Made by a program: the position numbers and the translations under genes. From the sequence record MN850568.1: 42,197 nt of DNA; one strand, given 5' to 3'. A model generated the notes under the pieces. That model made no database searches. It had not been told where the DNA came from and was given only the letters and a program-made list of their open reading frames with translations. This DNA comes from Escherichia phage altidsur. Shown here piece after piece: positions 3,201-42,197 of the stretch (positions within the stretch are counted from its first letter, which is position 1; every line of letters begins with the position of its first letter).

Positions 3201-3403
3201 GTGCGCCGGGCCTGCTGTTCCTCGACCGCCTGTATGGTGTCGCCGGGGCCACCTCTGCTACGGCAGGGAGTCTGGCTACTGGTGACATCGACCAAGCCGG
3301 GCATGACGCTCGCAAGGCTGCCGGGAACATCATTCAGGCTCTCCCACTAATCTCCATTGTGCCGGGTGTCCGAGCACTCAACGAAGCAGTTAAGGGCGAA
3401 TAA
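293..3403 (+). CDS. Internal virion (core/ejection) protein C, 1036 aa
   Basis: Very long ORF between the lysozyme-domain internal virion protein and the tailspike, matching T7/phiKMV gene order for the large core protein; ATGA coupling upstream, TAATG coupling downstream. Confidence 0.65.
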   Translation: MIITQESLDKFMAPKQGANAPSLVIPAPVKTADLSTPLQDATRQGAVEQFDKMQELEATPMATALSASVKNWDTTQLFDAAFNKPTFQADPDFKPNEALQNVQFPVGADDRTFLFKSKSMDEFNWRTQQLQEMRERTQLAHTAPVMNAVLQFADPLYLATDLLSMGAGTALKLGRLGTAAVGAASTAATMAAVGNEARPVSQNEIIFAAALHGAATTAFYRPAAAPARRLDELSPEEFAAEMQRRNGIDPNNPPQFDPNNAMSPLAMSLGVGPRGAAVVDEVPESIRATAQRGLDLARRGEQTNPKRPFLEWSLFKSFSQHSDESSALAGRLLDDPLNPNMTSAASIQRETQARFGVLLNQYEDTLRNALNADGWSNIRRFRDPVGYRRAQQEFEAAVRLELDKRMIDPSFKGANPNVANAADRLGEYSRAVGRELENKGMVEPGFVEKNPYYYPRRMNVTKIEQAEQLLGKKPFMKQMTTAVQRGIGTDRPTANVIAHAMVERARRKGYGIDNSGMIINKEGRDELLEIIANTKGMDEAAKARASALLRESGSDAGRPSMLKSRINIDMMHTLGPNLQVRDLFDDSITSMMDSYNRRITGRLALHEAGLGTDAERAAAREALAKSIPDSTARRKALDQYDNIMAYYQGAPVGEEMPEFMRQLSALTQATGLAASGLWQLVEYGTMMQRFGAVNTFRAMMRTIPEARALFKQMRVSTKEGRQLALDAEEALTAAVASDIRMRPIMQHYDDMFSADKSPWVMRMEHLRDATMFINMQKYIHFHQTRTNAALVMQTLRKAAEGDAKAIAAMKTYGANDALLADIRKQVGTHGTKPDAWDEGVFNRSRIVMMNAMDDAIVRARVGELPAFAEFSTLGKFLFTFRRFVAATHNKTLVGTWNREGARGMATLMAYQYPLAMMATAANNVISGKAFSDPDTMAPNKLAGQALNYLGAIGFASEFTGVLTGQQRSFGAPGLLFLDRLYGVAGATSATAGSLATGDIDQAGHDARKAAGNIIQALPLISIVPGVRALNEAVKGE

Positions 3404-5775
3404 TGGCGAACAGCTATAACACCTACGTGGCGAACGGGACGCAGACTGCGTTCCTCGTCACCTTTGAGCAGCGCGTATTTACGCAGATTCAGGTGTACCT
3501 CAACTCCACACTCGTGACGGAAGGGTACACCTACAACTCTGTGACCAAACAGATTGTCTTCTCGACAGCACCTGTCGCCGGGACAATCGTACGCCTGCAA
3601 CGCTACACCTCTGAGACGCTGCTTAACAAGTTTGGTCAGGACGCTGCCTTCACGGGCAGCAACCTCGACGAGAACTTCGAGCAGATTCTGTTTAAGGCTG
3701 AGGAAACTCAGGAGGCATGGCTCGCGCCGCTCGACCGAGCAGTCCGTGTCCCGAACTCCGAAGTCTCCATCAACGCATTACCGAACGTCGCTGGCCGCCG
3801 TAACAAGGCATTGGGCTTTGACAACGCTGGTCAGCCGTTCATGATTCCTCTGGTTGATATTCCTGACTCAGCTCTGGCCATTGCGCTGGCGATGAATGAC
3901 GGCGGTAAGTGGATTGGCACCCTTGGCGGTGGTACGTTCCTCGACCGTCAGGACACTGTGTGTCTGTCAGAGTTCACCAACAACACTGGCTATGCGTCCA
4001 TCGCTGCCGCTGTGCAGGCATGTTTCGACTATGCCAAGGCAAACGGTAAGGTTGTGGATGCACGCGGCTGGGAAGGCACTGTGGACTCCACGGTGACAAT
4101 GGATGGTATTGAGGTCGTCGGCGGTACGTGGCACGGTAAGGCAGATATTCGACTGATTGACTCAACGTTCCGCAACTTCAAGGCATCCACTGTGCGTGTG
4201 GCGTACTGGGGTGGCAAGGTTCGCATTGCTGACTATGAGTTCACCAGTGCGCCGAGCAACTCCAAAGTTACGTCAATCCTGTTCCAAGGCAACATCGCCG
4301 GGGGCAGCTACGTAATCGAGAACGGTATCCACCGTAACGGCAAGTTCGGTATTCTGCAACAGGGTACTGGTGAGGCTATCACCAATGGCATTATCCGCAA
4401 CGTCGCTATGATGGACATGATGGGTGATGGCATTGAGATGAACGTAATCAACAAGCACTATGACGGTGGCCTGCTGATTGAGAACATCTACCTTGAGAAT
4501 ATCGACGGCACCAACGCACCTATTCCACTGTCCAACTGGGGCATCGGTATCGGTATCGCTGGTCAAGGCCCGTTCGGTTGGGACGCTGCTGAGACTCAGT
4601 ACGCGAAGAACGTGACCGTGCGTAACGTCCATGCTCCGCGCGGTGTACGTCAGGTTGTCCACTTCGAAGTTACCCGCGACAGCGTGTGCGAGAACGTGGT
4701 CTGTAACCCTGACCTGTCCGTGTCCACTGGTACTGGCCTGTCTGCTGCTGGCGTAATCACGTACGGCTGCAAACGCATGACCATTGATGGCGTGGTTGGT
4801 GAGCCTATCAACACAGGTGCAACCTCCCCTAACGATATTCGTCTCGTTATGCTGGAGTGGGGTGCTAACCAAGCAGGTGCTGGCGGTACGCCGGGTGCTG
4901 CGTGTCCATCTTTTGACATGACCGTGCGCAACGTGCAGACCCGCACCGGGCGCTTCTATGCAGGTGTCGGCTCCGACGACGATAACACCAACACGTACCA
5001 CCTTGAAAACATTCACTGTTACAAGATGACGCTGTTCGGTGTGGCTACTCTGCTGAACATGACCAACGTTACTGGTGTCGTATTCGACGCAGTTGGCGAT
5101 GACTCCAGCGGCGGTACTTCGTCCAACGGTGTGTACCCGCGTAAGAAGACGTGCCTTAACATGGTGAACGTGAACTTCTACGGGCCGGGTATGACCGAGG
5201 GTGCGCTGTACAGTAAGGCTCGGTACTCGGACATCAGTACGCTGAACTCCAACGTCCGTGCAATCCCGTACACCAACATCCAAGGTAACGTTGGCGCTAT
5301 CCTGTCTCCAGTGAACCGCATCCTGACGCTGCCAAACAACTTGGCAACGCTGACAGGTGCTGAGTTCCCGACTGGTAAAGAGTTCCCGGAAGGTACTGTC
5401 CTGCTGAAAACTGATGGTTCTGGTGGTAACTTCATCGTCACCCAGTTTGGTGCCTACATCCCTAATGATGGCAACAACTTCAAGGTGCGTGCTGCTGCCG
5501 CTGGCCAGACGTATCTGGAGCAGAACCTGACTCCGGCTGGTACTCAGGCATCCACCTCGTGGCTGTACCACAAACCAATCTCTGCTGGCACCCGGTTGAA
5601 CATCCCCGGCGCTGGGCCGAGTGGCGGTACACTGACTGTGACGGTGGTGCGTGCTCCATATCAGGTGGACAACAACATCGGGAACCCGGTGCGCATCGAC
5701 ATCACACCGCCGCTGGTGACTGCTATCCCTGCCGGGACGCAGCTCGCCGCGACTTATCCGGTGGCTTACATCTAA
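3403..5775 (+). CDS. Tail fiber/tailspike protein with T7 gp17-like N-terminal anchor and a beta-helix (depolymerase-like) body
   Basis: The first ~150 aa resemble the conserved N-terminal adaptor of T7-type tail fibers by eye; the rest is Gly/Asn/Thr/Val-rich with repeated G-x-hydrophobic strands typical of right-handed beta-helix spikes; position after the internal virion proteins. Confidence 0.75.
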   Translation: MANSYNTYVANGTQTAFLVTFEQRVFTQIQVYLNSTLVTEGYTYNSVTKQIVFSTAPVAGTIVRLQRYTSETLLNKFGQDAAFTGSNLDENFEQILFKAEETQEAWLAPLDRAVRVPNSEVSINALPNVAGRRNKALGFDNAGQPFMIPLVDIPDSALAIALAMNDGGKWIGTLGGGTFLDRQDTVCLSEFTNNTGYASIAAAVQACFDYAKANGKVVDARGWEGTVDSTVTMDGIEVVGGTWHGKADIRLIDSTFRNFKASTVRVAYWGGKVRIADYEFTSAPSNSKVTSILFQGNIAGGSYVIENGIHRNGKFGILQQGTGEAITNGIIRNVAMMDMMGDGIEMNVINKHYDGGLLIENIYLENIDGTNAPIPLSNWGIGIGIAGQGPFGWDAAETQYAKNVTVRNVHAPRGVRQVVHFEVTRDSVCENVVCNPDLSVSTGTGLSAAGVITYGCKRMTIDGVVGEPINTGATSPNDIRLVMLEWGANQAGAGGTPGAACPSFDMTVRNVQTRTGRFYAGVGSDDDNTNTYHLENIHCYKMTLFGVATLLNMTNVTGVVFDAVGDDSSGGTSSNGVYPRKKTCLNMVNVNFYGPGMTEGALYSKARYSDISTLNSNVRAIPYTNIQGNVGAILSPVNRILTLPNNLATLTGAEFPTGKEFPEGTVLLKTDGSGGNFIVTQFGAYIPNDGNNFKVRAAAAGQTYLEQNLTPAGTQASTSWLYHKPISAGTRLNIPGAGPSGGTLTVTVVRAPYQVDNNIGNPVRIDITPPLVTAIPAGTQLAATYPVAYI

Positions 5776-5784
5776 GGAGAAACC

Positions 5785-6090
5785 ATGGCATCCGTGAACA
5801 AGCAGCTCGACGGGCTGCACCGGATGCTGGTGGAGTATCTGTCCGACCGCTTGGCCGACGCTCGTAGGAAAGATGAACACGGTAATATCATCGAACCTAT
5901 GGCGGCGGCTGAGCTGTCCGTACTTCGCCAGTTCCTGAAAGACAACGGTATTCAGGCTGACAAAGACCACGCAGATGACCTGCTGGCGCTGCAAGAGCAA
6001 CTGAATAACGAAAAGACCGAGGCAGGTCGTAAGGATATTATGACCGCTGCCATTAACTCAATCGCAGAAGATAGTGGGATGATGCACTAA
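5785..6090 (+). CDS. Terminase small subunit (DNA maturase A-like), 101 aa
   Basis: Small ORF immediately upstream of and coupled to the large terminase, similar in size to T7 gp18; RBS-like GGAGA upstream. Confidence 0.55.
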   Translation: MASVNKQLDGLHRMLVEYLSDRLADARRKDEHGNIIEPMAAAELSVLRQFLKDNGIQADKDHADDLLALQEQLNNEKTEAGRKDIMTAAINSIAEDSGMMH

Positions 6091-7850
6091 TGGATTTACA
6101 ACGCCGCATGGTGATGGCAGGAATCGTTCGCGCCCACTACGAGAACAACTTCCCGCTGTTCCTGCATGACTACTTCGCATGGCTGGGCTTTGACCTCACT
6201 GAAATGCAGCTCGACATTGGCCGCTACATGGCCGACAGGACGCTCAAGAACAAGTGCGTCATGGCGCAGCGTGGTGAGGCTAAGTCCACCATCGGTATTG
6301 CCCGTGCTCTATACGAATTTGTGCAGATGCCAAACGCCACTGTGCTGCTGGTATCCGGTTCGGATGACTATGCTGGCACGCTCTCGCACGCTATTGTGTC
6401 TGCCATCATGCAATGGGACAGACTCGAATGGCTGCGCCCGGAGACTCGCGCTGGCGCACGTACGTCATACACTGACGGCTTCGACGTGCATCACGCGTTC
6501 CGTATCCCTGACAAACAGCCCTCTGTAAAAGCGGTCGGTATCTTCGGCCAGTTGCAGGGGAACCACGTATCGCTGTTGATTGCCGATGACGTGGAGACTA
6601 CCAGTAACGGTAGCTCTCCAGCCAACCGCGCCCGTATCAACACCCTGACCAAAGAGTTCGCGGCTATCGCCAACGATGGTGCAGAGATTCTGTACCTCGG
6701 CACTCCGCAGACTCAGGACTCCATCTATAACACGCTCCCGCAGCGTGGCTTCGACGTTCGTATCTGGCCCGGTCGTTTCCCTACGCCGGAAGAAGAAGAA
6801 CGGTACGGCGGCTGTCTTGCCCCGTGGATTAAGCAGAAGATGGAAGGCCACCCGGAACTGCGTACTGGCTACGGTATCCTTGGGAACCGTGGTGCTCAGA
6901 CTGACCCTCAGCGTTATTCTGAGGAGAAGCAGCTCCAGAACGAACGAGATTATCAGCAGGCAGGCTTCCAGTTGCAGTTCATGCTGGACACGTCGCTGTC
7001 TGATGCGCTCAAACAAACGTTACATCTCAGAGACTTAATCTTCTTCCACGGCTCTACGCAGTCTGCGCCGGAGGTTCTGCATTGGTCTAACCACCCGCGC
7101 CATGCCGCCGAGCTGCCACTGGATTTCCCACTTGCTCGCGCTCAGCTATTCTTGGCTGCTGACTTCTCGGACACGTATGTACCATTCGAAAATACCTCGG
7201 CGTTTCTTGACCCTGCTGGTGGTGGGTCGGACGAATCAGTTATCATCGCCACAGCTTCTGTCGGCCCGTTTATCCACGTCATTGGTATGCACGTCTACCA
7301 CGGCGGCCAGACGGAGGAGAACATCAAGGCGGCGGTAGAGTGGCTGTCTGAGGTCGGCGTTAAGCGGCTGGTCATTGAGGATAACATGGGCCACGGAACC
7401 GTGACCAACATGTACCGAGGTGAGATTAAGCGGCAGGGCTTGACCATTGGCTGCGAAGGCGTGTACTCGTCCGGCCAGAAAGAGGTGCGTATCATCAACC
7501 GCCTCGGCCCAATCATGCAGCGCCACCGTGTCGTTGTGCATTGGTGCGTTGTTGAAGAAGACCTGCGGCTGTGCCGGGGGATGAATAACGGTGGTCGCGA
7601 GTTCAGCCTGTTCTGGCAGCTCCAGAACCTGACACAAGACCGTCAATCAATCCCTCATGATGACCGTATTGAAACCCTATCTGCTGCCGTGTACCTGCAC
7701 GCTGAGGTGCTACAGCAGGACGAACATGAAGAAGCTGCCAAGCGCGAGACTGCTGCTGCACGAGAGTTCCTTGCCAACCCCATGGGTTACGACGACTCGA
7801 AGTGGCGCAGCCATAAGCCTGTGCGCGGCGTGCGACGGAGACTACGTTAA
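6090..7850 (+). CDS. Terminase large subunit (DNA maturase B), 586 aa
   Basis: Same length as T7 gp19 (586 aa); ATPase-like segment (LLVSGSDD...LLIADDVETT) followed by a nuclease-like C-terminal half; position after the tail fiber and small terminase. Confidence 0.85.
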   Translation: MDLQRRMVMAGIVRAHYENNFPLFLHDYFAWLGFDLTEMQLDIGRYMADRTLKNKCVMAQRGEAKSTIGIARALYEFVQMPNATVLLVSGSDDYAGTLSHAIVSAIMQWDRLEWLRPETRAGARTSYTDGFDVHHAFRIPDKQPSVKAVGIFGQLQGNHVSLLIADDVETTSNGSSPANRARINTLTKEFAAIANDGAEILYLGTPQTQDSIYNTLPQRGFDVRIWPGRFPTPEEEERYGGCLAPWIKQKMEGHPELRTGYGILGNRGAQTDPQRYSEEKQLQNERDYQQAGFQLQFMLDTSLSDALKQTLHLRDLIFFHGSTQSAPEVLHWSNHPRHAAELPLDFPLARAQLFLAADFSDTYVPFENTSAFLDPAGGGSDESVIIATASVGPFIHVIGMHVYHGGQTEENIKAAVEWLSEVGVKRLVIEDNMGHGTVTNMYRGEIKRQGLTIGCEGVYSSGQKEVRIINRLGPIMQRHRVVVHWCVVEEDLRLCRGMNNGGREFSLFWQLQNLTQDRQSIPHDDRIETLSAAVYLHAEVLQQDEHEEAAKRETAAAREFLANPMGYDDSKWRSHKPVRGVRRRLR

Positions 7851-8518
7851 TGTCCTTGATTACCATCACAGACCAACAGCGGTATGACATCGGCTACCGC
7901 GCCAACATTGCTGCGAACCTTACGCAGCGTTTCGTGAACAACACGACCACTATCACGGCAGCTCAGGCTGCTGACATCGACACGGCCATCCAGCAGCTCA
8001 TGACAGCGTTGGAAGCGGCTGGGTATAGTTCCGTACCGGAAGGCTCAGTAATCGTCGCAGACGGCGCTACAGCGACTGTAGTGAACCAAGACGGCACTGT
8101 GTCCAAGTCGGGTACGGTTGAGGTCGATGGCTCTACTTATCAGATTCGATTCCCGGTGACTGTCGGTATGAAGTCCAACGGTGACTCAATCTCTGTGCAG
8201 AACGTGAACGGTGCCGCTGGCATTACGTCCACTTCCTTCGTGAACACCAACGGCGTGCTGCTGGCAGCCCGGCTCCCGGCGACGGTGGCCTGTATCTCCA
8301 GCGGTAACGGTATCCAAATCCGCAACTCTGCGGGTACGGCTATCGCCAACGCCACGTTTACTGTGTCCAACGGGGTAATCTCGTACGGCACCTTCCCTGC
8401 AACTATCGCTGCTGTGGCTAACGCCGCTGCACTACAGGTTCCGGTGACTGGCACTTACACCGACACTGCAACCTTCACTGTCGCTGGTGGCGTTATCACT
8501 GGCATCACCCTCTCTTAA
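7850..8518 (+). CDS. Hypothetical Gly/Thr/Val-rich protein (possible virion-associated or receptor-binding accessory protein), 222 aa
   Basis: ORF coupled (TAATG) to the terminase stop; beta-strand-rich low-complexity composition; no recognisable catalytic motif. Confidence 0.5.
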   Translation: MSLITITDQQRYDIGYRANIAANLTQRFVNNTTTITAAQAADIDTAIQQLMTALEAAGYSSVPEGSVIVADGATATVVNQDGTVSKSGTVEVDGSTYQIRFPVTVGMKSNGDSISVQNVNGAAGITSTSFVNTNGVLLAARLPATVACISSGNGIQIRNSAGTAIANATFTVSNGVISYGTFPATIAAVANAAALQVPVTGTYTDTATFTVAGGVITGITLS

Positions 8519-8734: not shown

Positions 8735-9223
8735 ATGAAACTGTCTCGGCTAATGGCCGGGGCAGTCCTCTCATTGTCACTGACATTGACGGGCTGCTCC
8801 GCAACTAGCGCACTGTCTGCTGTAACTTCGGCTGTCTCTCCCAACAAGCCGGAACTCACGGCGCAAGTCGGTGCAGAGAATACGAAGCAAGGTATCGGTG
8901 TGACTGCGAAACAGTCCGACGAAACAAAGGTCGGTGACGTATCAGGTAACGCGAAAGTGGATACCGCTAAGCAGGGTTCGAATGGCACTTCCGTCAAGGA
9001 CGTTACAGGAGGCTCTGTAAACGCTTCTAAGCAGGGGTCGCAAATGACCCAAGGAAACGTACAGGCTCGCACAGTAATCGTCTCACAGAGCGACCCACGC
9101 AGTCTCCTGTGGGCTTTCGGCATGGGCCTTACATGTATCCTTGGTTTAGTCATGTGGTTTGTACCATCTCCGTGGAAAAGGAAAGTGAAAGATGACGGAA
9201 GCAAAGAAGGAGCCAACTCCTAA
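8735..9223 (+). CDS. Lipoprotein with C-terminal transmembrane helix; unimolecular spanin (u-spanin) candidate
   Basis: N-terminal signal peptide ending in a lipobox (LTLTGC), Thr/Ser/Gly/Lys-rich extended middle, C-terminal hydrophobic helix (LLWAFGMGLTCILGLVMWFVP) followed by a charged tail; located directly upstream of the endolysin. Confidence 0.55.
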   Translation: MKLSRLMAGAVLSLSLTLTGCSATSALSAVTSAVSPNKPELTAQVGAENTKQGIGVTAKQSDETKVGDVSGNAKVDTAKQGSNGTSVKDVTGGSVNASKQGSQMTQGNVQARTVIVSQSDPRSLLWAFGMGLTCILGLVMWFVPSPWKRKVKDDGSKEGANS

Positions 9224-9575: not shown

Positions 9576-10111
9576 TGACTAACTTTGAAATCTGTATGCG
9601 GTTCACCGGGCTGGCAGAAGGCGGTTACGCCAACCTGCCCGGAGACACCGGAGGGGAAACGAATCATGGAATTAGTGACGCTCGTGATGGAAAGCTGGAT
9701 GGTAGAGCTTGCGGTGTCCCTACTGGGCTTGGCGGCACTATTTGTGTGCCTATCCGCAACCTCACCAAAGCGCAAGCCGAAGCAATCTATCGACGGGACT
9801 ACTACAGCCCCATCCGAGGTGACGAGCTTCACCCTGCGATTGCATGTGCCGTGTTCGACTACGGCGTTAACTCAGGTGTCTCCCGTGCGGCGAAAGCTCT
9901 ACAGCGGGTATGCGGCGTTGCACAAGACGGGGTTATTGGCCCTGCTACCGTGGCAGCAGCCAAACGTCTGGAACCTCACTCCGCAGCAGCAGCCATCTGT
10001 GACCTTCGTATTGCGTTCCTAAAGGCTTCTACAGCCCCGACAATCGTTCGGTATAGGGATGCCTTGGTAGCTCGTGCAAAACGCTGTAGCGACTACTGTG
10101 CGACGCTGTAG
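9575..10111 (+). CDS. Endolysin, GH108-type muramidase with C-terminal peptidoglycan-binding-like region, 178 aa
   Basis: N-terminal motif LAEGGYANLPGDTGGETNHGIS and downstream IYRRDYY match the GH108 signature (EGG...DPGG.T..GI...YxxDYW) read by eye; no N-terminal TM/SAR segment. Confidence 0.8.
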   Translation: MTNFEICMRFTGLAEGGYANLPGDTGGETNHGISDARDGKLDGRACGVPTGLGGTICVPIRNLTKAQAEAIYRRDYYSPIRGDELHPAIACAVFDYGVNSGVSRAAKALQRVCGVAQDGVIGPATVAAAKRLEPHSAAAAICDLRIAFLKASTAPTIVRYRDALVARAKRCSDYCATL

Positions 10112-10320
10112 GGGCTATCGAAAGCTGGAGCATTGAACAGGCCGTGGGGAGCAATACCCCCGGCTTGAAAATTGCATGTTTATAGTTGCCCCTCCCTCGA
10201 CCCAAATGACCGCGCGTACCCCCATGACGTGTGCGCGGATTAGCCTCGCGACGTGCGCGATATTGCCTCGCGTGTGCTGCGCGGCGCGTCAAGAGGATTG
10301 CCTGCGTGCGGTATAGCTCG

Positions 10321-10710
10321 TGCGTGTCGCGTTTCACTATCGCCGCGCGGTGCTGTCCTGCTGGCTGGCTGTGTGCCTGCTGTGTGGGCTATCGGTGGCG
10401 GTGTGGTGCTGTCCTATTGGGGACGCTCTGCGCTGGCTGCGTGGTGCTGCTGGCTGCGCGTGGTCGGTCGGGTATCTGTCTCTTTTCGTCGTGGTGTGTG
10501 GTGCTGGTGTGTAGCGGTGTGCGGCGTGGTGCTGCCGTCCTGCTGTGTGGTGTGCTGGTCTACTGTCTGCGCCTGCCAGCTCTGCGCGTCATGCTCTGCT
10601 ACTGTCTCTTACTGTCCTACTGCCTTCACTGTCTGCCGTCTGTCAGTCCTACGGTCTGCCATCCGTCATCCGTTCGGCGCTCGCTTGTTTCGGCTGCGCC
10701 GCGCTCGCTC
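10321..10710. other. A-depleted (G/T/C-only) strand-asymmetric tract; candidate genome-terminus / terminal-repeat-associated region
   Basis: By manual count roughly twenty A residues in ~390 nt on the + strand. Because every stop codon contains A, all three + frames stay open, which produces the overlapping Cys/Arg-rich ORFs in the track. Sits between the last late gene and the early promoters. Confidence 0.6.
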
Positions 10711-10730
10711 TGCGTATCTAGCGATACTAT

Positions 10731-10752
10731 ATCACTATAGACACTTTCATAA
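10731..10752 (-). promoter_or_regulatory. Copy of the 22-bp phage promoter-like motif ATGAAAGTGTCTATAGTGATAT, inverted; + strand reads ATATCACTATAGACACTTTCAT
   Basis: Reverse complement is identical over 22 bp to 31211-31232; contains the CTATAG core reminiscent of the CACTATAG core of T7/SP6-type promoters. Confidence 0.45.
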
Positions 10753-10757
10753 TTATC

Positions 10758-10856
10758 TAATGATTACAGTAACTTATAACCTATCTGATAACGGTATTCT
10801 ATCCAGTGTTATGATTATCTAATCAAACTTTAATCCTAATGATTACAGTAACTTAT
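10758..10856. repeat. AT-rich direct repeats (20-bp TAATGATTACAGTAACTTAT at 10758-10777 and 10837-10856, plus duplicated ATTATCTAA)
   Basis: Exact 20-bp duplication 79 bp apart, read directly, immediately downstream of the A-depleted tract and the inverted promoter-like motif. Confidence 0.6.
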
Positions 10857-10877
10857 CACTTTTCTTGAAAATAATAC

Positions 10878-10907
10878 TTGCCAATCTGTTTTGGTTTATG
10901 CTGTAAT
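10878..10907 (+). promoter_or_regulatory. Host sigma70-type promoter candidate (TTGCCA-N18-TGTAAT)
   Basis: -35-like TTGCCA at 10878-10883 and the same TATGCTGTAAT -10 box as the next two promoters. Confidence 0.35.
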
Positions 10908-10984
10908 TCATCTCGCCGGACAACACAGCGTTAACGTGTTGGACGGTGTAGGACGGTAACACTGCTCTTTAACAATCTGGTGTG

Positions 10985-11013
10985 TTGACAAGGCAAGCTC
11001 ACTATGCTGTAAT
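10985..11013 (+). promoter_or_regulatory. Host sigma70-type early promoter (TTGACA-N17-TGTAAT)
   Basis: Perfect -35 TTGACA at 10985-10990, 17-nt spacer, TATGCTGTAAT box; one of three identically spaced copies upstream of the early region. Confidence 0.55.
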
Positions 11014-11121
11014 GCTTCCACGTCAGCCAGCAAGCTAAACAGTCATTGATAAAGACGTTAAAACACACGTAGGCAAGCTGGTACGGTTTAACTATCTCAG
11101 AACGGGCGCTGATTAAATCGG

Positions 11122-11150
11122 TTGACAGGATGAAATGAGTATGCTGTAAT
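11122..11150 (+). promoter_or_regulatory. Host sigma70-type early promoter (TTGACA-N17-TGTAAT)
   Basis: TTGACA at 11122-11127, 17-nt spacer, TATGCTGTAAT box at 11140-11150. Confidence 0.55.
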
Positions 11151-11201
11151 GCACACCAGATTGACAGGGCAGCAAGCCAGTCAGTCAGAAGTAAAAAGTA
11201 G

Positions 11202-11230
11202 TTGACACGCTGAATACGATGTGATGTAAT
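11202..11230 (+). promoter_or_regulatory. Host sigma70-type early promoter (TTGACA-N17-TGTAAT)
   Basis: TTGACA at 11202-11207, 17-nt spacer, GATGTAAT box at 11223-11230. Confidence 0.5.
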
Positions 11231-11687
11231 CAGCACCGAGTTGAAAGGTTGCAAAACAACCTGCTCTGAGTGAACGTAAACTGGCCACGTAGTGTCACGG
11301 TCTCATGGGTATCCGGCGCAGCTAGGAACTGGTGAGAGGCATCGCTGAAAAGCAACGGTATTGCAACAATGCTAACGCCGTAGGGGTAGTGCCTGATGCA
11401 AGGGAACGGAGAAGCGCGATAGACACAGCGCAGTATCAGTAAAATCCCAAACGTCTTATAAGGCGCGGAGTGAAGCGGGTAGGTAGGCAAGCTGGTAACG
11501 GTGAGCCGGACTGCTGGAGGACTCCTGAGAGTGGATGCAGACAATATCCACGGCGCGAAATGGGCGGGGCGATTTTTCAGGGTAGTGAATCCGACAAGCC
11601 AATCAATGCCACTTAGTGCAACATGTACGGCGCGTCACAATGGGTTCACTATCCACCTGAAAATAGCCAACAACTGGAGAAATAACT

Positions 11688-12080
11688 ATGTACCGTATCT
11701 ATGCAAGCGCATATCGTCAGGGCAACGCTGAATGTGTTAATCTGGCGCTTCATTGCAAGGCACTGCGAACGGTGCAGGATATGTTCGGAGTGGTTCCGGT
11801 CACACTGACAGGCAAGTTCGACAATGCGTACGAGTTAAGCATGGTCTTTCCTGTCGATGGAATCTACGAAATCAGGCAGGCTGTTAAGCTGTTCTGTAAA
11901 GCATTCGAACAGGACTGCATCATGGTAGTGACCAAAGATGATGATGCAATCTTCATGGATTCACCATATCCGGGCAAGCCTGCTGGCAAGTTCGTCAGCA
12001 AGACTGAGGCCGAAATGGAAGCCGGGCAGCACACCGCTTGGACTTACGATGGTGAACAATTTTGGGTAGTGGAGGCGTAA
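11688..12080 (+). CDS. Early hypothetical protein, 130 aa
   Basis: First ORF after the ~450-nt leader; GGAGA RBS 8 nt upstream of the ATG. Confidence 0.55.
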   Translation: MYRIYASAYRQGNAECVNLALHCKALRTVQDMFGVVPVTLTGKFDNAYELSMVFPVDGIYEIRQAVKLFCKAFEQDCIMVVTKDDDAIFMDSPYPGKPAGKFVSKTEAEMEAGQHTAWTYDGEQFWVVEA

Positions 12081-39796: not shown

Positions 39797-42197
39797 ATGG
39801 CTACTATGCGTGACCAGCGTGGCGCTAACCTTAATGCTGCGCAGCAGGGATTACCAAGTGTGCAGCAGGCGCAGACTCCGTTTAGTCTCGCAGGCCGCGA
39901 TACTCGCATCGACACGTTTCCTACCGAGTCCATTCAACGCGTACTGAACATGGCCAGCGCACTTGCTGGCCGTGTCACTGAGCGTGCGAACGAGGAAGAA
40001 TACCTCAAGGGGGCTAACGCCGCCGCGAGTGGCAAGGCTGTCGAGGATTTGGATTCGAACTGGCTTACCGCTCAGTTCCAGAAAGCTGGTTACAACGACC
40101 AGTACAAACGAATGGAAATGGCGAAGGTCGCCTCAGACATCTCGGCTAACATGCCGCAGTATGCGAAGATGGCACCCGACGAGTTCTTGAAGGTGGTGGA
40201 CGAGAAGACCACTGGCCTGTTCGAGAACACTGATGGTATGACGCTGAACGGGCGTAAGTCACTGCTGGAGAACCAGCTCACGTTCAGCAACACCCTTATC
40301 CGTACGCAGGCTGCCCAGCATGGTAAGTATCTGGTTGAGCAGCGTGCGGCGATGTACAACACGCAGGGTAACACTCTAGTTACTCTGGCGGCTCAGGCCA
40401 AGGCCACTGGCGATGGCGGCGCGTACGCTAACGCTACGGCAGCAACCATGGCATGGGCCAAGTCTATTCTGGCAGACGACAAGCTGCCACTGGAGACTCG
40501 CCGGACGCAGGTGACTTCCATGATGGGGCTGATGCTCCAGCAGGATTTGCGTACCCCGGTCGAGACTGCTGTGAACTCCGGGCTATTCAACGAGCTGCCT
40601 GCCGACGATTTGGCCAAGCTGCAAGGTCAGATTCGTGAATCCAAATCTCGTACTGAGGTTCAGGATAACATGGGTCTGCTGGCGCAGAAGGGTCAACTTG
40701 ATGCGCGTCAGGCAGTATTCGGTGACGTTACGCCGGAACAGTACACGCAGACGCTCCAGCAGATGGTGGACAATAAGCTGATTAGCGCTGGTGGTTTCAG
40801 CTCTGCTATCGAGTCCTTCTACAAGGATTACGCCAAGCAAGCCAAGGCCAGCCAGCTCGGTCAGGCTTACGCCACCGGGAACCAGACGTACATGCTCCAG
40901 CAGGGCGCGAGTGAGCAGGATGGTGCTGACGCATTCATCAAGGCTCGCATGAAGCAACCGGGCGCGACGGCAAGTTCCGTGGCGTTCGACCTGCTGCAAG
41001 TGGGTGCGCAGACTGGCTTCCCTTCTGCGTACAAGTCTGCTGCCAAGTTGATTGAACCATCCCTGTCGAACTTCGGCACCGTGGACGAAATGAACCCGGA
41101 CGCTGCCCGTACCGTAACCGGGCTGATTGACCGCGTAACTGTGGCCGAGAATCAGGGTGACAAGACTGCATGGACTAAGCTCCTGTCAGGTCTGTCAGAA
41201 GAAAACCAAGAGAAGATGGTGTACATGCGCGAGCAGATTAAGGCTGGCCGCACCATCGACCAAGCTGGTCAGGGTTACATCAAGCAGCAGCAGGACTACG
41301 CTGGCTTGACCCCGGCACAGAAATCTCAAATCCTCACGCAGCGTCAATCTGACGTTAACTCTGTGGTGAATGGGCTGGAGGCTCAGGGCTTCCTCTCTCG
41401 CACTTGGCAGGGTCTGGCTGGTCTGTTCTCAGATACTCAGCAGAACCTGTTCCAAGCACGCGTCGCATCTGGTGACATTACTGCCGCGCAGGAAATGTCG
41501 GAGGTGTCTGCCGCGTACCGCGAGGAGCTGCAAGCTGTAGTCCTCAAGAACCCGAACGTGACGAAGGATGGTATGGAAGCACTCGCATCTGCGAAGCTGG
41601 CCAACCGTGTCCTGCGCGTTGGTGAAACCACATTCAGCCCCGGCTCTGTGCTTATCGCACCGAGAGGCCAAACTGTTCAGTCTATGCTCGGCTTGCCTGC
41701 TGACGTAGCCCCCGACCGTATCGGTCGCGCTATCGCCGCACTTGACCAGACCAAGGCACCAGAAGGCTTCGAGTCGTCCTACTCGTTTATGCCAGATGGC
41801 TCTCTGAACGTTCAGTTCTTCAACAAGCAAGGTGACGTTTCCCCGAACTCGGTACGCATTCTGCCGCAGCTCGTGCAGGAACGCATCCGTGAAGACGACC
41901 GTGCAGCAGCCACTGCCAACAACGAAGTGTATGGCGACGGGAAACTCTTTGTTGATAAGACCAGTAACGTGGGTATCCGCGTGAATGGCGTTAATACTGC
42001 TGGGGTAGACGAGCAGCGTATGCTTGTTGCCCGTGGCAAACTGATTGACTTCGAAGGTATCCGCAGCACCACCTATCGCGACAGCACTGGTGTACAGACT
42101 AACGGTGTCGGTATCTCCGACCGTAGCCCGTACTTTGCCCAAGGCCAAGCGTCTGGTATGAAAGGCGGTACTGAGTGGTCGCCGCGAACTATCCACG
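39797..42197 (+). CDS. Internal virion protein B with C-terminal lysozyme-like domain (5' part; runs off the window and appears to continue at 1-296)
   Basis: Uninterrupted + frame from the ATG at 39797 to the window end (800 codons); near the end, FEGIRSTTYRDSTGVQTNGVGIS fits the E-G-x-R...Y-x-D...G...T-x-G-x-G lysozyme motif. phiKMV gp36 is known to carry a C-terminal lysozyme domain. Confidence 0.7.
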   Translation, partial: MATMRDQRGANLNAAQQGLPSVQQAQTPFSLAGRDTRIDTFPTESIQRVLNMASALAGRVTERANEEEYLKGANAAASGKAVEDLDSNWLTAQFQKAGYNDQYKRMEMAKVASDISANMPQYAKMAPDEFLKVVDEKTTGLFENTDGMTLNGRKSLLENQLTFSNTLIRTQAAQHGKYLVEQRAAMYNTQGNTLVTLAAQAKATGDGGAYANATAATMAWAKSILADDKLPLETRRTQVTSMMGLMLQQDLRTPVETAVNSGLFNELPADDLAKLQGQIRESKSRTEVQDNMGLLAQKGQLDARQAVFGDVTPEQYTQTLQQMVDNKLISAGGFSSAIESFYKDYAKQAKASQLGQAYATGNQTYMLQQGASEQDGADAFIKARMKQPGATASSVAFDLLQVGAQTGFPSAYKSAAKLIEPSLSNFGTVDEMNPDAARTVTGLIDRVTVAENQGDKTAWTKLLSGLSEENQEKMVYMREQIKAGRTIDQAGQGYIKQQQDYAGLTPAQKSQILTQRQSDVNSVVNGLEAQGFLSRTWQGLAGLFSDTQQNLFQARVASGDITAAQEMSEVSAAYREELQAVVLKNPNVTKDGMEALASAKLANRVLRVGETTFSPGSVLIAPRGQTVQSMLGLPADVAPDRIGRAIAALDQTKAPEGFESSYSFMPDGSLNVQFFNKQGDVSPNSVRILPQLVQERIREDDRAAATANNEVYGDGKLFVDKTSNVGIRVNGVNTAGVDEQRMLVARGKLIDFEGIRSTTYRDSTGVQTNGVGISDRSPYFAQGQASGMKGGTEWSPRTIH

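What the first reader, a model, noticed from the sequence alone, without database searches (positions are those of the whole stretch)
3403..5775. Tailspike with a probable polysaccharide depolymerase domain
After the conserved T7-type N-terminal anchor, the protein is rich in Gly/Asn/Thr/Val with short repeated strands and an Asp/Glu-containing core, typical of right-handed beta-helix capsule or LPS depolymerases. It is probably the host-range determinant and implies an encapsulated or O-antigen-bearing host.
Basis: inference. Interest (0 to 1): 0.4.

Follow-up and report, generated by a model that had tools for sequence, protein, structure and literature searches.

The report
Phage tailspike that digests colanic acid

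Summary
The ORF at 3403-5775 (+) is real and encodes 790 aa. Its exact sequence is GenBank QHR65270.1, "tailspike colanidase" of Escherichia phage altidsur (Bonnellvirus, Autographiviridae); the window is that phage's 42,197-bp genome.

- A T7-type N-terminal anchor (Pfam PF03906, aa 2-104).
- A Gly/Asn/Thr/Val-rich body (37% against 25% background).

The substrate can be named. The protein is 94% identical, without gaps, to the phage NST1 enzyme. Recombinant NST1 enzyme hydrolyses colanic acid to single repeat units. Relative J8-65 makes expanding halos and lowers high-molecular-weight colanic acid.

The host inference needs a correction. Sibling phages were isolated on E. coli K-12, which has no O-antigen or K capsule, only inducible colanic acid. 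That polymer is shared across Enterobacteriaceae, so it is not a serotype-level determinant.

Two extras:
- The catalytic core (invariant D342, E345, E422) is homologous to host WcaM, the uncharacterised last gene of the colanic acid cluster (E=2e-18).
- The 3' third of the gene is a synonymous-divergence hotspot against sibling phage aldrigsur, which suggests allele exchange.

Verdict: already known, low interest.

The parts
3403..5775 (+). Complete tailspike colanidase gene (790 aa plus TAA stop). Identical to QHR65270.1 of Escherichia phage altidsur.
   Evidence: ORF list; exact-sequence look-up; 94.7% nt identity to the aldrigsur 'tailspike colanidase' and 87.4% to the NST1 gene.
3403..3717 (+). 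N-terminal tail-attachment (anchor) domain, aa 1-105, T7 gp17 type.
   Evidence: Pfam PF03906 at aa 2-104, E=3.6e-07, above cut-off; PHROG tail-fibre families at aa 1-104; PDB Gp44 8ES4 at aa 2-104, E=8.9e-05. dN=0 against aldrigsur.
3718..3942 (+). Neck or linker, aa 106-180, between the anchor and the enzymatic body. Conserved only within Bonnellvirus-type spikes.
   Evidence: Homology to colanidases with other adaptors starts at aa 162-202. pLDDT is below 50 here in the monomer model. The boundary is approximate.
3943..5262 (+). Right-handed parallel beta-helix catalytic domain, about aa 181-620.
4093..4818 (+). Most conserved core, aa 231-472, shared with host WcaM. It contains the motifs GDGIEMNV (341-348), NWGIGIGIAG (378-387) and RQVVHFE (416-422).
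   Evidence: NCBIfam TIGR04004 WcaM at E=2.2e-19, aa 304-464; BLASTP against K-12 WcaM at E=2e-18; joint alignment with invariant columns; highest column identity at aa 331-420.
4426..4437 (+). Codons for D342 to E345 (GDGIE), candidate catalytic carboxylates.
   Evidence: Invariant in 22 colanidase homologues, in phi92 gp150 and in WcaM. The catalytic role is inferred, not shown.
4666..4668 (+). Codon for E422 (RQVVHFE), the third invariant acid and a candidate catalytic residue.
   Evidence: Invariant. The role is inferred.
5263..5772 (+). C-terminal domain, aa 621-790, mostly beta. It is homologous to the C-terminal part of phi92 gp150 and is the synonymous-divergence hotspot.
   Evidence: The alignment to 6E0V runs to aa 790. 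Against aldrigsur: nt identity 86.1%, dS 0.557, dN/dS 0.086.

Best explanation
The gene encodes the single tailspike of a phiKMV-like podovirus, Escherichia phage altidsur (genus Bonnellvirus).

Residues 1-105 form a T7 gp17-type adaptor that fixes the spike to the tail. By analogy with T7-like phages and solved tailspikes, the spike is expected to be a trimer at the tail tube A/B junction. After a short neck, residues about 181-620 form a right-handed beta-helix that binds colanic acid. This domain acts as an endo-glycosidase (hydrolase) that cuts the polymer backbone into single repeat units. Residues 621-790 form a C-terminal beta domain, as in phi92 gp150.

On the virion, the enzyme lets the phage bind and bore through the colanic acid slime layer of E. 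coli and related Enterobacteriaceae to reach the outer membrane. Spikes released unassembled at lysis diffuse outwards and produce the expanding plaque halos.

Shown here or in the cited papers: the gene, its domains, the predicted fold, 94% identity to a biochemically tested enzyme, and the halo and colanic-acid loss in relative J8-65.

Inferred: trimer state and copy number, the catalytic role of D342/E345/E422, and activity of this particular allele.
For: Identity: the exact sequence is QHR65270.1, 'tailspike colanidase [Escherichia phage altidsur]', on a 42,197-bp contig. The window length equals altidsur's in Olsen et al. 2020, and the window is about 98% identical to sibling aldrigsur.

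Family: PHROG 6117 'colanic acid degradation' at E=1.8e-229. The PDB phi92 gp150 colanidase matches at E=4.5e-65 over aa 162-790.

Function: the protein is 743/790 identical, with no gaps, to NST1 CAE. Recombinant NST1 enzyme reduced colanic acid from 8.7 MDa to about 107 kDa in the fermenter. In a 48-h digest it gave a 1,148-Da product that the authors assign to one repeat unit, and it released reducing sugar (PMC9143390). [quoted passage not shown]

Constraint: dN/dS is 0.054.

Substrate link: the catalytic core is homologous to WcaM of the host colanic acid gene cluster.

Context: the gene lies between the internal virion proteins and the terminase, and no other fibre or spike gene is found.
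Against: No assay exists for this allele itself. It differs from the NST1 enzyme at 47 positions.

The primary NST1 biochemistry paper (Firozi et al. 2010) could not be read here.

The catalytic residues of the family are not described in any paper I could reach. The coordinates of the ligand complex 6E0W were not available, so I could not check that the invariant acids face the sugar.

The N-terminal 180 residues are poorly modelled (pLDDT below 50). Oligomeric state was not modelled.

It is not established whether colanic acid is a required receptor or only a barrier. Sibling phages were isolated on K-12 MG1655, which (from my own knowledge) makes little colanic acid under standard 37 C plating. 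Infection therefore probably also needs another surface receptor.
Confidence: 0.93

Rival explanations
1. The spike is a depolymerase for a serotype-specific K capsule or an O-antigen rather than colanic acid. This is what the first reader's host inference implied.
For: Most beta-helix tailspikes that resemble the model structurally act on O-antigens or K capsules, for example HK620, Sf6, CBA120 and Klebsiella depolymerases. DepoCatalog lists two Klebsiella enzymes with a 'colanidase-like' domain among capsule depolymerases.
Against: The protein is 94% identical to an enzyme shown to hydrolyse colanic acid. The sibling phages were isolated on K-12 MG1655, a model strain of the kind described as lacking O-antigen and capsule apart from colanic acid. 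The catalytic core is homologous to WcaM of the colanic acid cluster.
Confidence: 0.03
2. The spike binds polysaccharide but is catalytically dead, so it is a pure receptor-binding protein.
For: No assay has been done on this allele. It has 47 substitutions relative to the NST1 enzyme.
Against: All invariant residues of the family are intact (D342, E345, N347, W379, R416, Q417, H420, E422). The beta-helix has dN/dS of 0.02. The more distant J8-65 (85% identical spike) still gives halos and loss of colanic acid.
Confidence: 0.02
3. The enzyme is a polysaccharide lyase (beta-elimination at glucuronic acid) rather than a hydrolase.
Against: The NST1 enzyme is reported as a hydrolase that releases reducing ends and whole repeat units. 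From established structural knowledge, not tested here, the glucuronic acid of colanic acid sits in the side chain. Elimination there would not depolymerise the backbone. Sutherland (1971), cited, is titled 'Enzymic hydrolysis of colanic acid'.
Confidence: 0.04
4. Role variant: colanic acid is the obligatory primary receptor, so the phage productively infects only cells that are making colanic acid. The alternative is that colanic acid is merely a barrier the enzyme removes.
For: J8-65 was found on mucoid lon hosts and gives turbid plaques. [quoted passage not shown] It does not grow on the K-12 strain IJ1133 but does grow on T7-resistant MG1655. From my own knowledge, such mutants are often LPS-defective and mucoid. 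The colanidase is the only spike or fibre gene in the genome.
Against: Nine Bonnellviruses were isolated on ordinary MG1655. No adsorption or wca-knockout data were found. Kc261's very narrow host range points to further determinants.
Confidence: 0.35

Closest known systems
Phage NST1 colanic acid-degrading enzyme (CAE; GenBank HM214492 / ADI49571.1)
   Same: Same length (790 aa). 94% identical with no gaps over anchor, beta-helix and C-terminal domain. Same 90%-identity cluster. The NST1 enzyme's hydrolase activity on colanic acid has been measured.
   Different: 47 substitutions, spread along the protein. The DNA is only 87.4% identical. The NST1 genome is not sequenced, so its phage type is unknown.
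Tailspike colanidases of the other Bonnellviruses (aldrigsur, J8-65, glasur, megetsur, Kc261 and others)
   Same: Same gene position and same architecture. 98.4% (aldrigsur) to 85% (J8-65) protein identity. J8-65 supplies the biological phenotype of halos and colanic acid loss.
   Different: Against aldrigsur the 3' third is a divergence hotspot: 86% nt identity against about 98.5% in the flanks, nearly all synonymous. Lidtsur carries a variant that is about 88% identical up to aa ~243 and about 50% after that.
Phage phi92 gp150 colanidase tailspike (PDB 6E0V apo; 6E0W shares the same chain sequence)
   Different: Only 27-29% identity. gp150 belongs to a myovirus with several spike sets and has a different N-terminal attachment region. 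It is one of many spikes there, whereas it is the only one here.
E. coli WcaM (b2043), last gene of the colanic acid (wca/cps) cluster
   Same: Homologous beta-helix core: BLASTP E=2e-18, 32% identity over aa 231-472 against WcaM 97-314; NCBIfam E=2.2e-19. D342, E345, N347, W379, R416, Q417, H420 and E422 are all conserved. Both are tied to colanic acid.
   Different: WcaM is 464 aa and begins with a twin-arginine signal (SRRTFL, seen; listed as a Tat substrate). It lacks both the T7-type anchor and the colanidase C-terminal domain. The phage protein scores 69 bits against an equivalog cut-off of 795, so it is not a WcaM. WcaM's own activity is untested.
Pantoea stewartii WceF (PDB 6TGF), a host-encoded stewartan-modifying enzyme with a tailspike-like fold
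   Different: 9% identity and a different substrate. That paper does not mention WcaM or colanic acid.

Membership tests
Colanidase tailspike family (NST1 CAE / phi92 gp150; PHROG 6117) | Sequence homology across the whole enzymatic body | tested here: met
   PHROG 6117 at E=1.8e-229, aa 88-790; 94% identity to NST1 CAE; gp150 at E=4.5e-65.
Colanidase tailspike family (NST1 CAE / phi92 gp150; PHROG 6117) | Fold of the solved member (beta-helix plus C-terminal domain of 6E0V) | tested here: met
Colanidase tailspike family (NST1 CAE / phi92 gp150; PHROG 6117) | Conserved active-site residues | tested here: inconclusive
   Family-invariant D342, E345, E422, H420, R416 and W379 are all present.
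Colanidase tailspike family (NST1 CAE / phi92 gp150; PHROG 6117) | Enzymatic degradation of colanic acid | not testable with these tools
   Shown for the NST1 enzyme and, at the phage level, for J8-65. Not shown for this allele.
T7 gp17-type tail fibre N-terminal domain (Pfam PF03906) | HMM score above Pfam's gathering cut-off | tested here: met
   30.4 bits against a 25.2-bit cut-off, aa 2-104.
Right-handed parallel beta-helix (pectin-lyase-like) carbohydrate-active enzymes | Beta-helix fold | tested here: met
WcaM (NCBIfam TIGR04004 / NF007517 equivalog) | Whole-protein score above the curated equivalog cut-off | tested here: not met
   69.4 bits against a 794.6-bit cut-off; only aa 304-464 match. 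It shares a domain with WcaM but is not a member. Phage records that call this gene 'colanic acid biosynthesis protein' are mislabelled.
WcaM (NCBIfam TIGR04004 / NF007517 equivalog) | N-terminal twin-arginine export signal | tested here: not met
   WcaM starts [20 protein letters not shown]. The phage protein starts with the T7-type anchor.
Genus Bonnellvirus (Autographiviridae) | Genome-wide nucleotide similarity and gene order with J8-65-type phages | tested here: met
   About 98% identity to aldrigsur over the whole window and 83% to J8-65 over 64% of a 24-kb stretch. Gene order is the same. The protein is named as altidsur's.

The most novel reading that the evidence does not exclude
The phage colanidase and the host's WcaM share one catalytic core, with the same invariant Asp/Glu/Glu, His, Arg and Trp. 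Under this reading WcaM is itself a periplasmic colanic-acid endo-glycanase that trims or releases the polymer. It is currently annotated only as a 'putative colanic acid biosynthesis protein', and I found no paper assigning it an activity. Phages and host would then have exchanged this module. I found no paper in the searchable library that links WcaM to tailspikes, and none that assigns it depolymerase activity. The homology is, however, implicit in domain databases and in phage mis-annotations.
Probability: 0.5. Interest if true: 0.4.

Novelty: already known. Interest (0 to 1): 0.1.

Why it matters
For this window it matters little. The gene is already deposited and named as a tailspike colanidase. 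Its family has a crystal structure and a biochemically tested member that is 94% identical.

In practical terms, it confirms that the phage targets colanic acid, an exopolysaccharide common to Enterobacteriaceae. That is relevant to biofilm removal, to phage-cocktail synergy (as shown for J8-65 with T7), and to making low-molecular-weight colanic acid.

The one thread with wider value is the specific homology to host WcaM. It gives a cheap, testable hypothesis for the function of a colanic-acid-cluster gene whose activity is unassigned. It also explains a recurrent mis-annotation of phage spikes as 'colanic acid biosynthesis protein'.

Tried and rejected
- **Primary NST1 paper.** Firozi et al. 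2010 is not held under its PMC id or DOI. I relied on PMC9143390 and PMC4179555 instead.
- **Local Pfam copy.** It found only PF03906. The precomputed annotation of homologues lists a newer family, PF27800, whose name I could not retrieve.
- **AlphaFold-database fold search.** I wanted to see whether WcaM-type proteins appear as structural neighbours, but the library is not installed.
- **Model coordinates.** They are not exposed to scripts. I could not measure distances between D342, E345 and E422, or superpose the model on the ligand complex 6E0W.
- **Receptor data for Bonnellviruses.** Literature searches for wca knockouts, genome-wide screens and the BASEL collection found nothing usable.
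- **WceF paper.** It does not mention WcaM or colanic acid.
- **'CAase' fire-blight paper.** It never names NST1 or colanic acid, so I did not use it as evidence.
- **Closer donor for the divergent 3' third.** The best match is still aldrigsur at 89.3%.
- **Antisense ORF 4273-6000 (-), 575 aa.** I treat it as spurious. All genes run on one strand, and divergence is synonymous in the + frame.
- **Sigma-70 and terminator scan of the 10-11.8 kb gap.** It returned nothing, although repeats there look promoter-like.
Full report

Yes. The window has one ORF at exactly 3403-5775 on the + strand. It starts with ATG, encodes 790 aa and ends in TAA. Its ATG overlaps the stop codon of the upstream 1036-aa gene (TAATG), and an AAGGG lies a few bases upstream. 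The next gene starts 10 nt after the stop, behind a GGAG.

The composition claim holds. Gly, Asn, Thr and Val make up 37.1% of the protein, against 25.5% in the window's other long ORFs.

The 'T7-type N-terminal anchor' is confirmed by Pfam PF03906 at aa 2-104 (E=3.6e-07; 30.4 bits against a 25.2-bit cut-off). Several PHROG tail-fibre families also match only aa 1-104.

**2. What the window is**

The window is 42,197 bp, the length given for Escherichia phage altidsur (MN850568, Bonnellvirus) in Olsen et al. 2020. It is collinear with sibling phage aldrigsur and about 98% identical to it. That agrees with the published 97.1% genome-wide identity between the two.

An exact-sequence look-up settles the identity. 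The 790-aa protein is QHR65270.1, 'tailspike colanidase [Escherichia phage altidsur]', on a 42,197-bp contig.

The window is a circular permutation of the genome. One internal-virion-protein gene runs across the window's end and start.

**3. What the gene is**

*Sequence.* PHROG 6117 ('colanic acid degradation') matches aa 88-790 at E=1.8e-229. Sixteen phage records carry a full-length DNA homologue, annotated 'tailspike colanidase' or 'colanic acid-degrading protein'.

The protein is 743/790 (94%) identical, without gaps, to the phage NST1 colanic acid-degrading enzyme. It is 98.4% identical to the aldrigsur spike and 85% to the J8-65 spike.

A solved structure exists for a more distant homologue, the phi92 gp150 colanidase tailspike (PDB 6E0V/6E0W). 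It matches at E=4.5e-65 over aa 162-790.

*Fold.* I built a 22-sequence alignment and an AlphaFold2 model (mean pLDDT 75). The model is confident (85-97) over most of aa 200-560. It is poor over the first 180 residues, where the alignment is shallow and the trimer context is missing.

- AlgE4 epimerase;
- Klebsiella K1 lyase and coliphage K5 lyase;
- GH87, GH110 and GH28 enzymes;
- HK620, 9NA, CBA120 and Acinetobacter tailspikes;
- Pantoea WceF.

Foldseek ranks the same proteins.

*Function.* Two papers carry the experimental weight.

In PMC9143390, recombinant His-tagged NST1 enzyme was purified. After a 48-h digest of colanic acid no monosaccharides were found. The product had a mass of 1,148 Da, which the authors assign to one repeat unit, and reducing sugar was released. 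In a fermenter the enzyme lowered the average mass from 8.71 MDa to 107 kDa.

In PMC4179555, Bonnellvirus J8-65 forms plaques with large expanding halos on mucoid K-12. Phage could not be recovered from the halo edge. Plates seeded with phage had significantly less high-molecular-weight colanic acid.

With 94% identity to the first enzyme and 85% to the second phage's spike, transferring the function is safe. It has not been measured for this allele.

*Context.* The gene order, read around the permuted genome, is as follows:
- portal, scaffold, capsid;
- tail tube A and tail tube B;
- three internal virion proteins;
- tailspike;
- small terminase and large terminase;
- small unknown genes;
- a lysis block containing an Rz-like spanin and the endolysin.

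No other fibre or spike gene is recognisable.

**4. Anatomy and likely mechanism**

- **aa 1-105** form the T7 gp17-type anchor.
- **aa 106-180** form a neck found only in Bonnellvirus-type spikes.
- **aa ~181-620** form the beta-helix.
- **aa 621-790** form a C-terminal beta domain that is also present in gp150.

Homology to colanidases in other phage groups begins at aa 162-202. Those proteins carry other adaptors at their N-termini: P22-type head-binding PF09008 in podoviruses, and PF18668 with or without PF26208 in large myoviruses. The enzymatic body is therefore a mobile module. tblastn finds it in 262 phage records, from 40-kb podoviruses to 380-kb jumbo phages.

The most conserved stretch is aa 331-420. 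Invariant residues include G341, D342, I344, E345, N347, V348, W379-G382, R416, Q417, H420 and E422.

I propose D342, E345 and E422 as the catalytic carboxylates. This is inference from invariance only.

The mechanism I consider most likely is as follows. Spikes on the tail bind colanic acid along the beta-helix groove and hydrolyse backbone glycosidic bonds, releasing repeat units. The virion thereby moves through the slime layer to the outer membrane. Surplus spikes released at lysis diffuse away and strip neighbouring cells, giving the halo.

Selection is strongly purifying. dN/dS is 0.054 over the whole gene and 0.02 in the beta-helix.

**5. Correction to the host inference**

The siblings were isolated on E. 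coli K-12 MG1655. [quoted passage not shown]

Colanic acid is secreted by Enterobacteriaceae generally. Spikes that are 80-86% identical occur in phages of Enterobacter, Cronobacter and Kosakonia. Kc261 lysed only 1 of 11 Kosakonia strains.

The spike therefore defines a broad polysaccharide target rather than a serotype, and other factors set the fine host range.

It is unresolved whether colanic acid is a required receptor or only a barrier. The hints for a required receptor are J8-65's turbid plaques, its failure on strain IJ1133, and its growth on mucoid or T7-resistant hosts. I found no knockout data.

**6. Two further results**

*(a) Homology to host WcaM.* NCBIfam matches aa 304-464 to WcaM, the last gene of the host colanic acid cluster, at E=2.2e-19. 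The score (69 bits) is far below the equivalog cut-off of 795 bits.

Direct BLASTP against K-12 WcaM (b2043) gives E=2e-18 and 32% identity over aa 231-472. A joint alignment keeps D342, E345, N347, W379, R416, Q417, H420 and E422 invariant.

WcaM has a twin-arginine signal and is listed as a Tat substrate. It lacks both the anchor and the C-terminal domain.

This explains why several phage records call the spike 'colanic acid biosynthesis protein'. It also explains why one paper read a 'wcaM superfamily protein' in a phage as a biosynthetic function.

No paper in the searchable library mentions both WcaM and tailspikes. The two that mention both WcaM and depolymerases do not connect them. The WceF paper, a precedent for a bacterial exopolysaccharide-modifying enzyme with a tailspike-like fold (title), does not mention WcaM.

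The natural hypothesis is that WcaM is a periplasmic colanic-acid glycanase. This is untested.

*(b) A divergence hotspot.* Against aldrigsur the gene is 94.6% identical at the DNA level, while the surrounding 13 kb is 98.5% identical. The differences are concentrated at nt 4501-6000.

The C-terminal domain has dS of 0.557, against 0.07-0.15 elsewhere in the gene, with dN/dS of 0.086. No database allele is closer than 89.3%. This is the signature of replacement by an unsampled, functionally equivalent allele.

Lidtsur shows a different mosaic: about 88% identity up to aa ~243 and about 50% beyond. That matches the 'unique version of tailspike colanidase' noted by Olsen et al..

**7. Verdict**

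Both the observation and the interpretation are correct, but the object is already known and named in GenBank. Its family has a solved structure and a tested enzyme. Novelty: already known. Interest: low (0.1).

The only thread worth pursuing is the WcaM link. It concerns the host gene more than this phage gene.

Noticed in passing
window 4093-4818 (aa 231-472) and L006:2503-3897 (E. coli K-12 wcaM): The catalytic core of the phage colanidase is specifically homologous to host WcaM, the uncharacterised last gene of the colanic acid cluster (E=2e-18), and all family-invariant polar residues are conserved. This suggests WcaM is a colanic-acid glycanase. I found no paper linking the two.
   Followed up: partly
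window 4501-6000, especially 5263-5772: This is a local divergence hotspot against the otherwise ~98.5%-identical sibling phage aldrigsur: 86-93% nt identity, almost all synonymous (dS 0.56 in the C-terminal domain). It looks like recombinational replacement by an unsampled allele; no closer donor is in the phage collection.
   Followed up: yes
hits H47, H53, H68, H69, H71 (phages SKA64, ST231, Sharanji, vB_EcoM_CRJP21, BF17): Homologues of this spike are annotated 'colanic acid biosynthesis protein', and in one case 'MutT/NUDIX hydrolase family protein'. The first label probably comes from the WcaM domain hit. These labels are misleading.
   Followed up: partly
hits H38, H52, H79 (Stutzerimonas phage STP9, Acinetobacter phage ABPW7, Campylobacter phage A145): Colanidase homologues (31-49% identity) sit in phages attributed to hosts not known to make colanic acid. 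A145 and ABPW7 look like ordinary ~146-149 kb coliphage types. Either the host assignment or the substrate deserves a check; PMC11126041 already raises this for ABPW7.
   Followed up: no
window 10111-11688: A 1.6-kb non-coding gap with strong negative AT skew. It has GT-rich degenerate repeats at 10340-10610. It also has three tandem copies of TATGCTGTAATnC (10897, 11003, 11140), two of them preceded by GTTGACA at 17-nt spacing. These are probably early host-RNA-polymerase promoters near the true genome end. The consensus scan missed them because the second hexamer has G at position 2.
   Followed up: partly
window 41739-42197 joined to 1-296: The window is a circular permutation of the phage genome. 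An internal virion protein gene (homologue of aldrigsur_54) is split across the window's end and start, so the record's ends are probably not the physical termini.
   Followed up: partly
window 8735-9223 (+): A 162-aa protein matches the PHROG 'Rz-like spanin' family (E=1.4e-36). It has an N-terminal lipoprotein-type signal (LTLTGC) and a hydrophobic C-terminal stretch, a layout reminiscent of a unimolecular spanin. It is annotated only as hypothetical in the sibling phage.
   Followed up: partly
window 7850-8518 (+): A 222-aa ORF lies directly after the large terminase. It has internal repeats (for example ATFTVSNGVISYGTFPAT / ATFTVAGGVITGITLS). It matches only unknown-function PHROGs, plus a weak hit to a 'virion structural protein' family. 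Its function is unknown.
   Followed up: partly
window 4273-6000 (-): A 575-aa antisense ORF lies inside the tailspike gene. It is almost certainly spurious: all annotated genes are on one strand, and divergence between alleles is synonymous in the + frame.
   Followed up: partly
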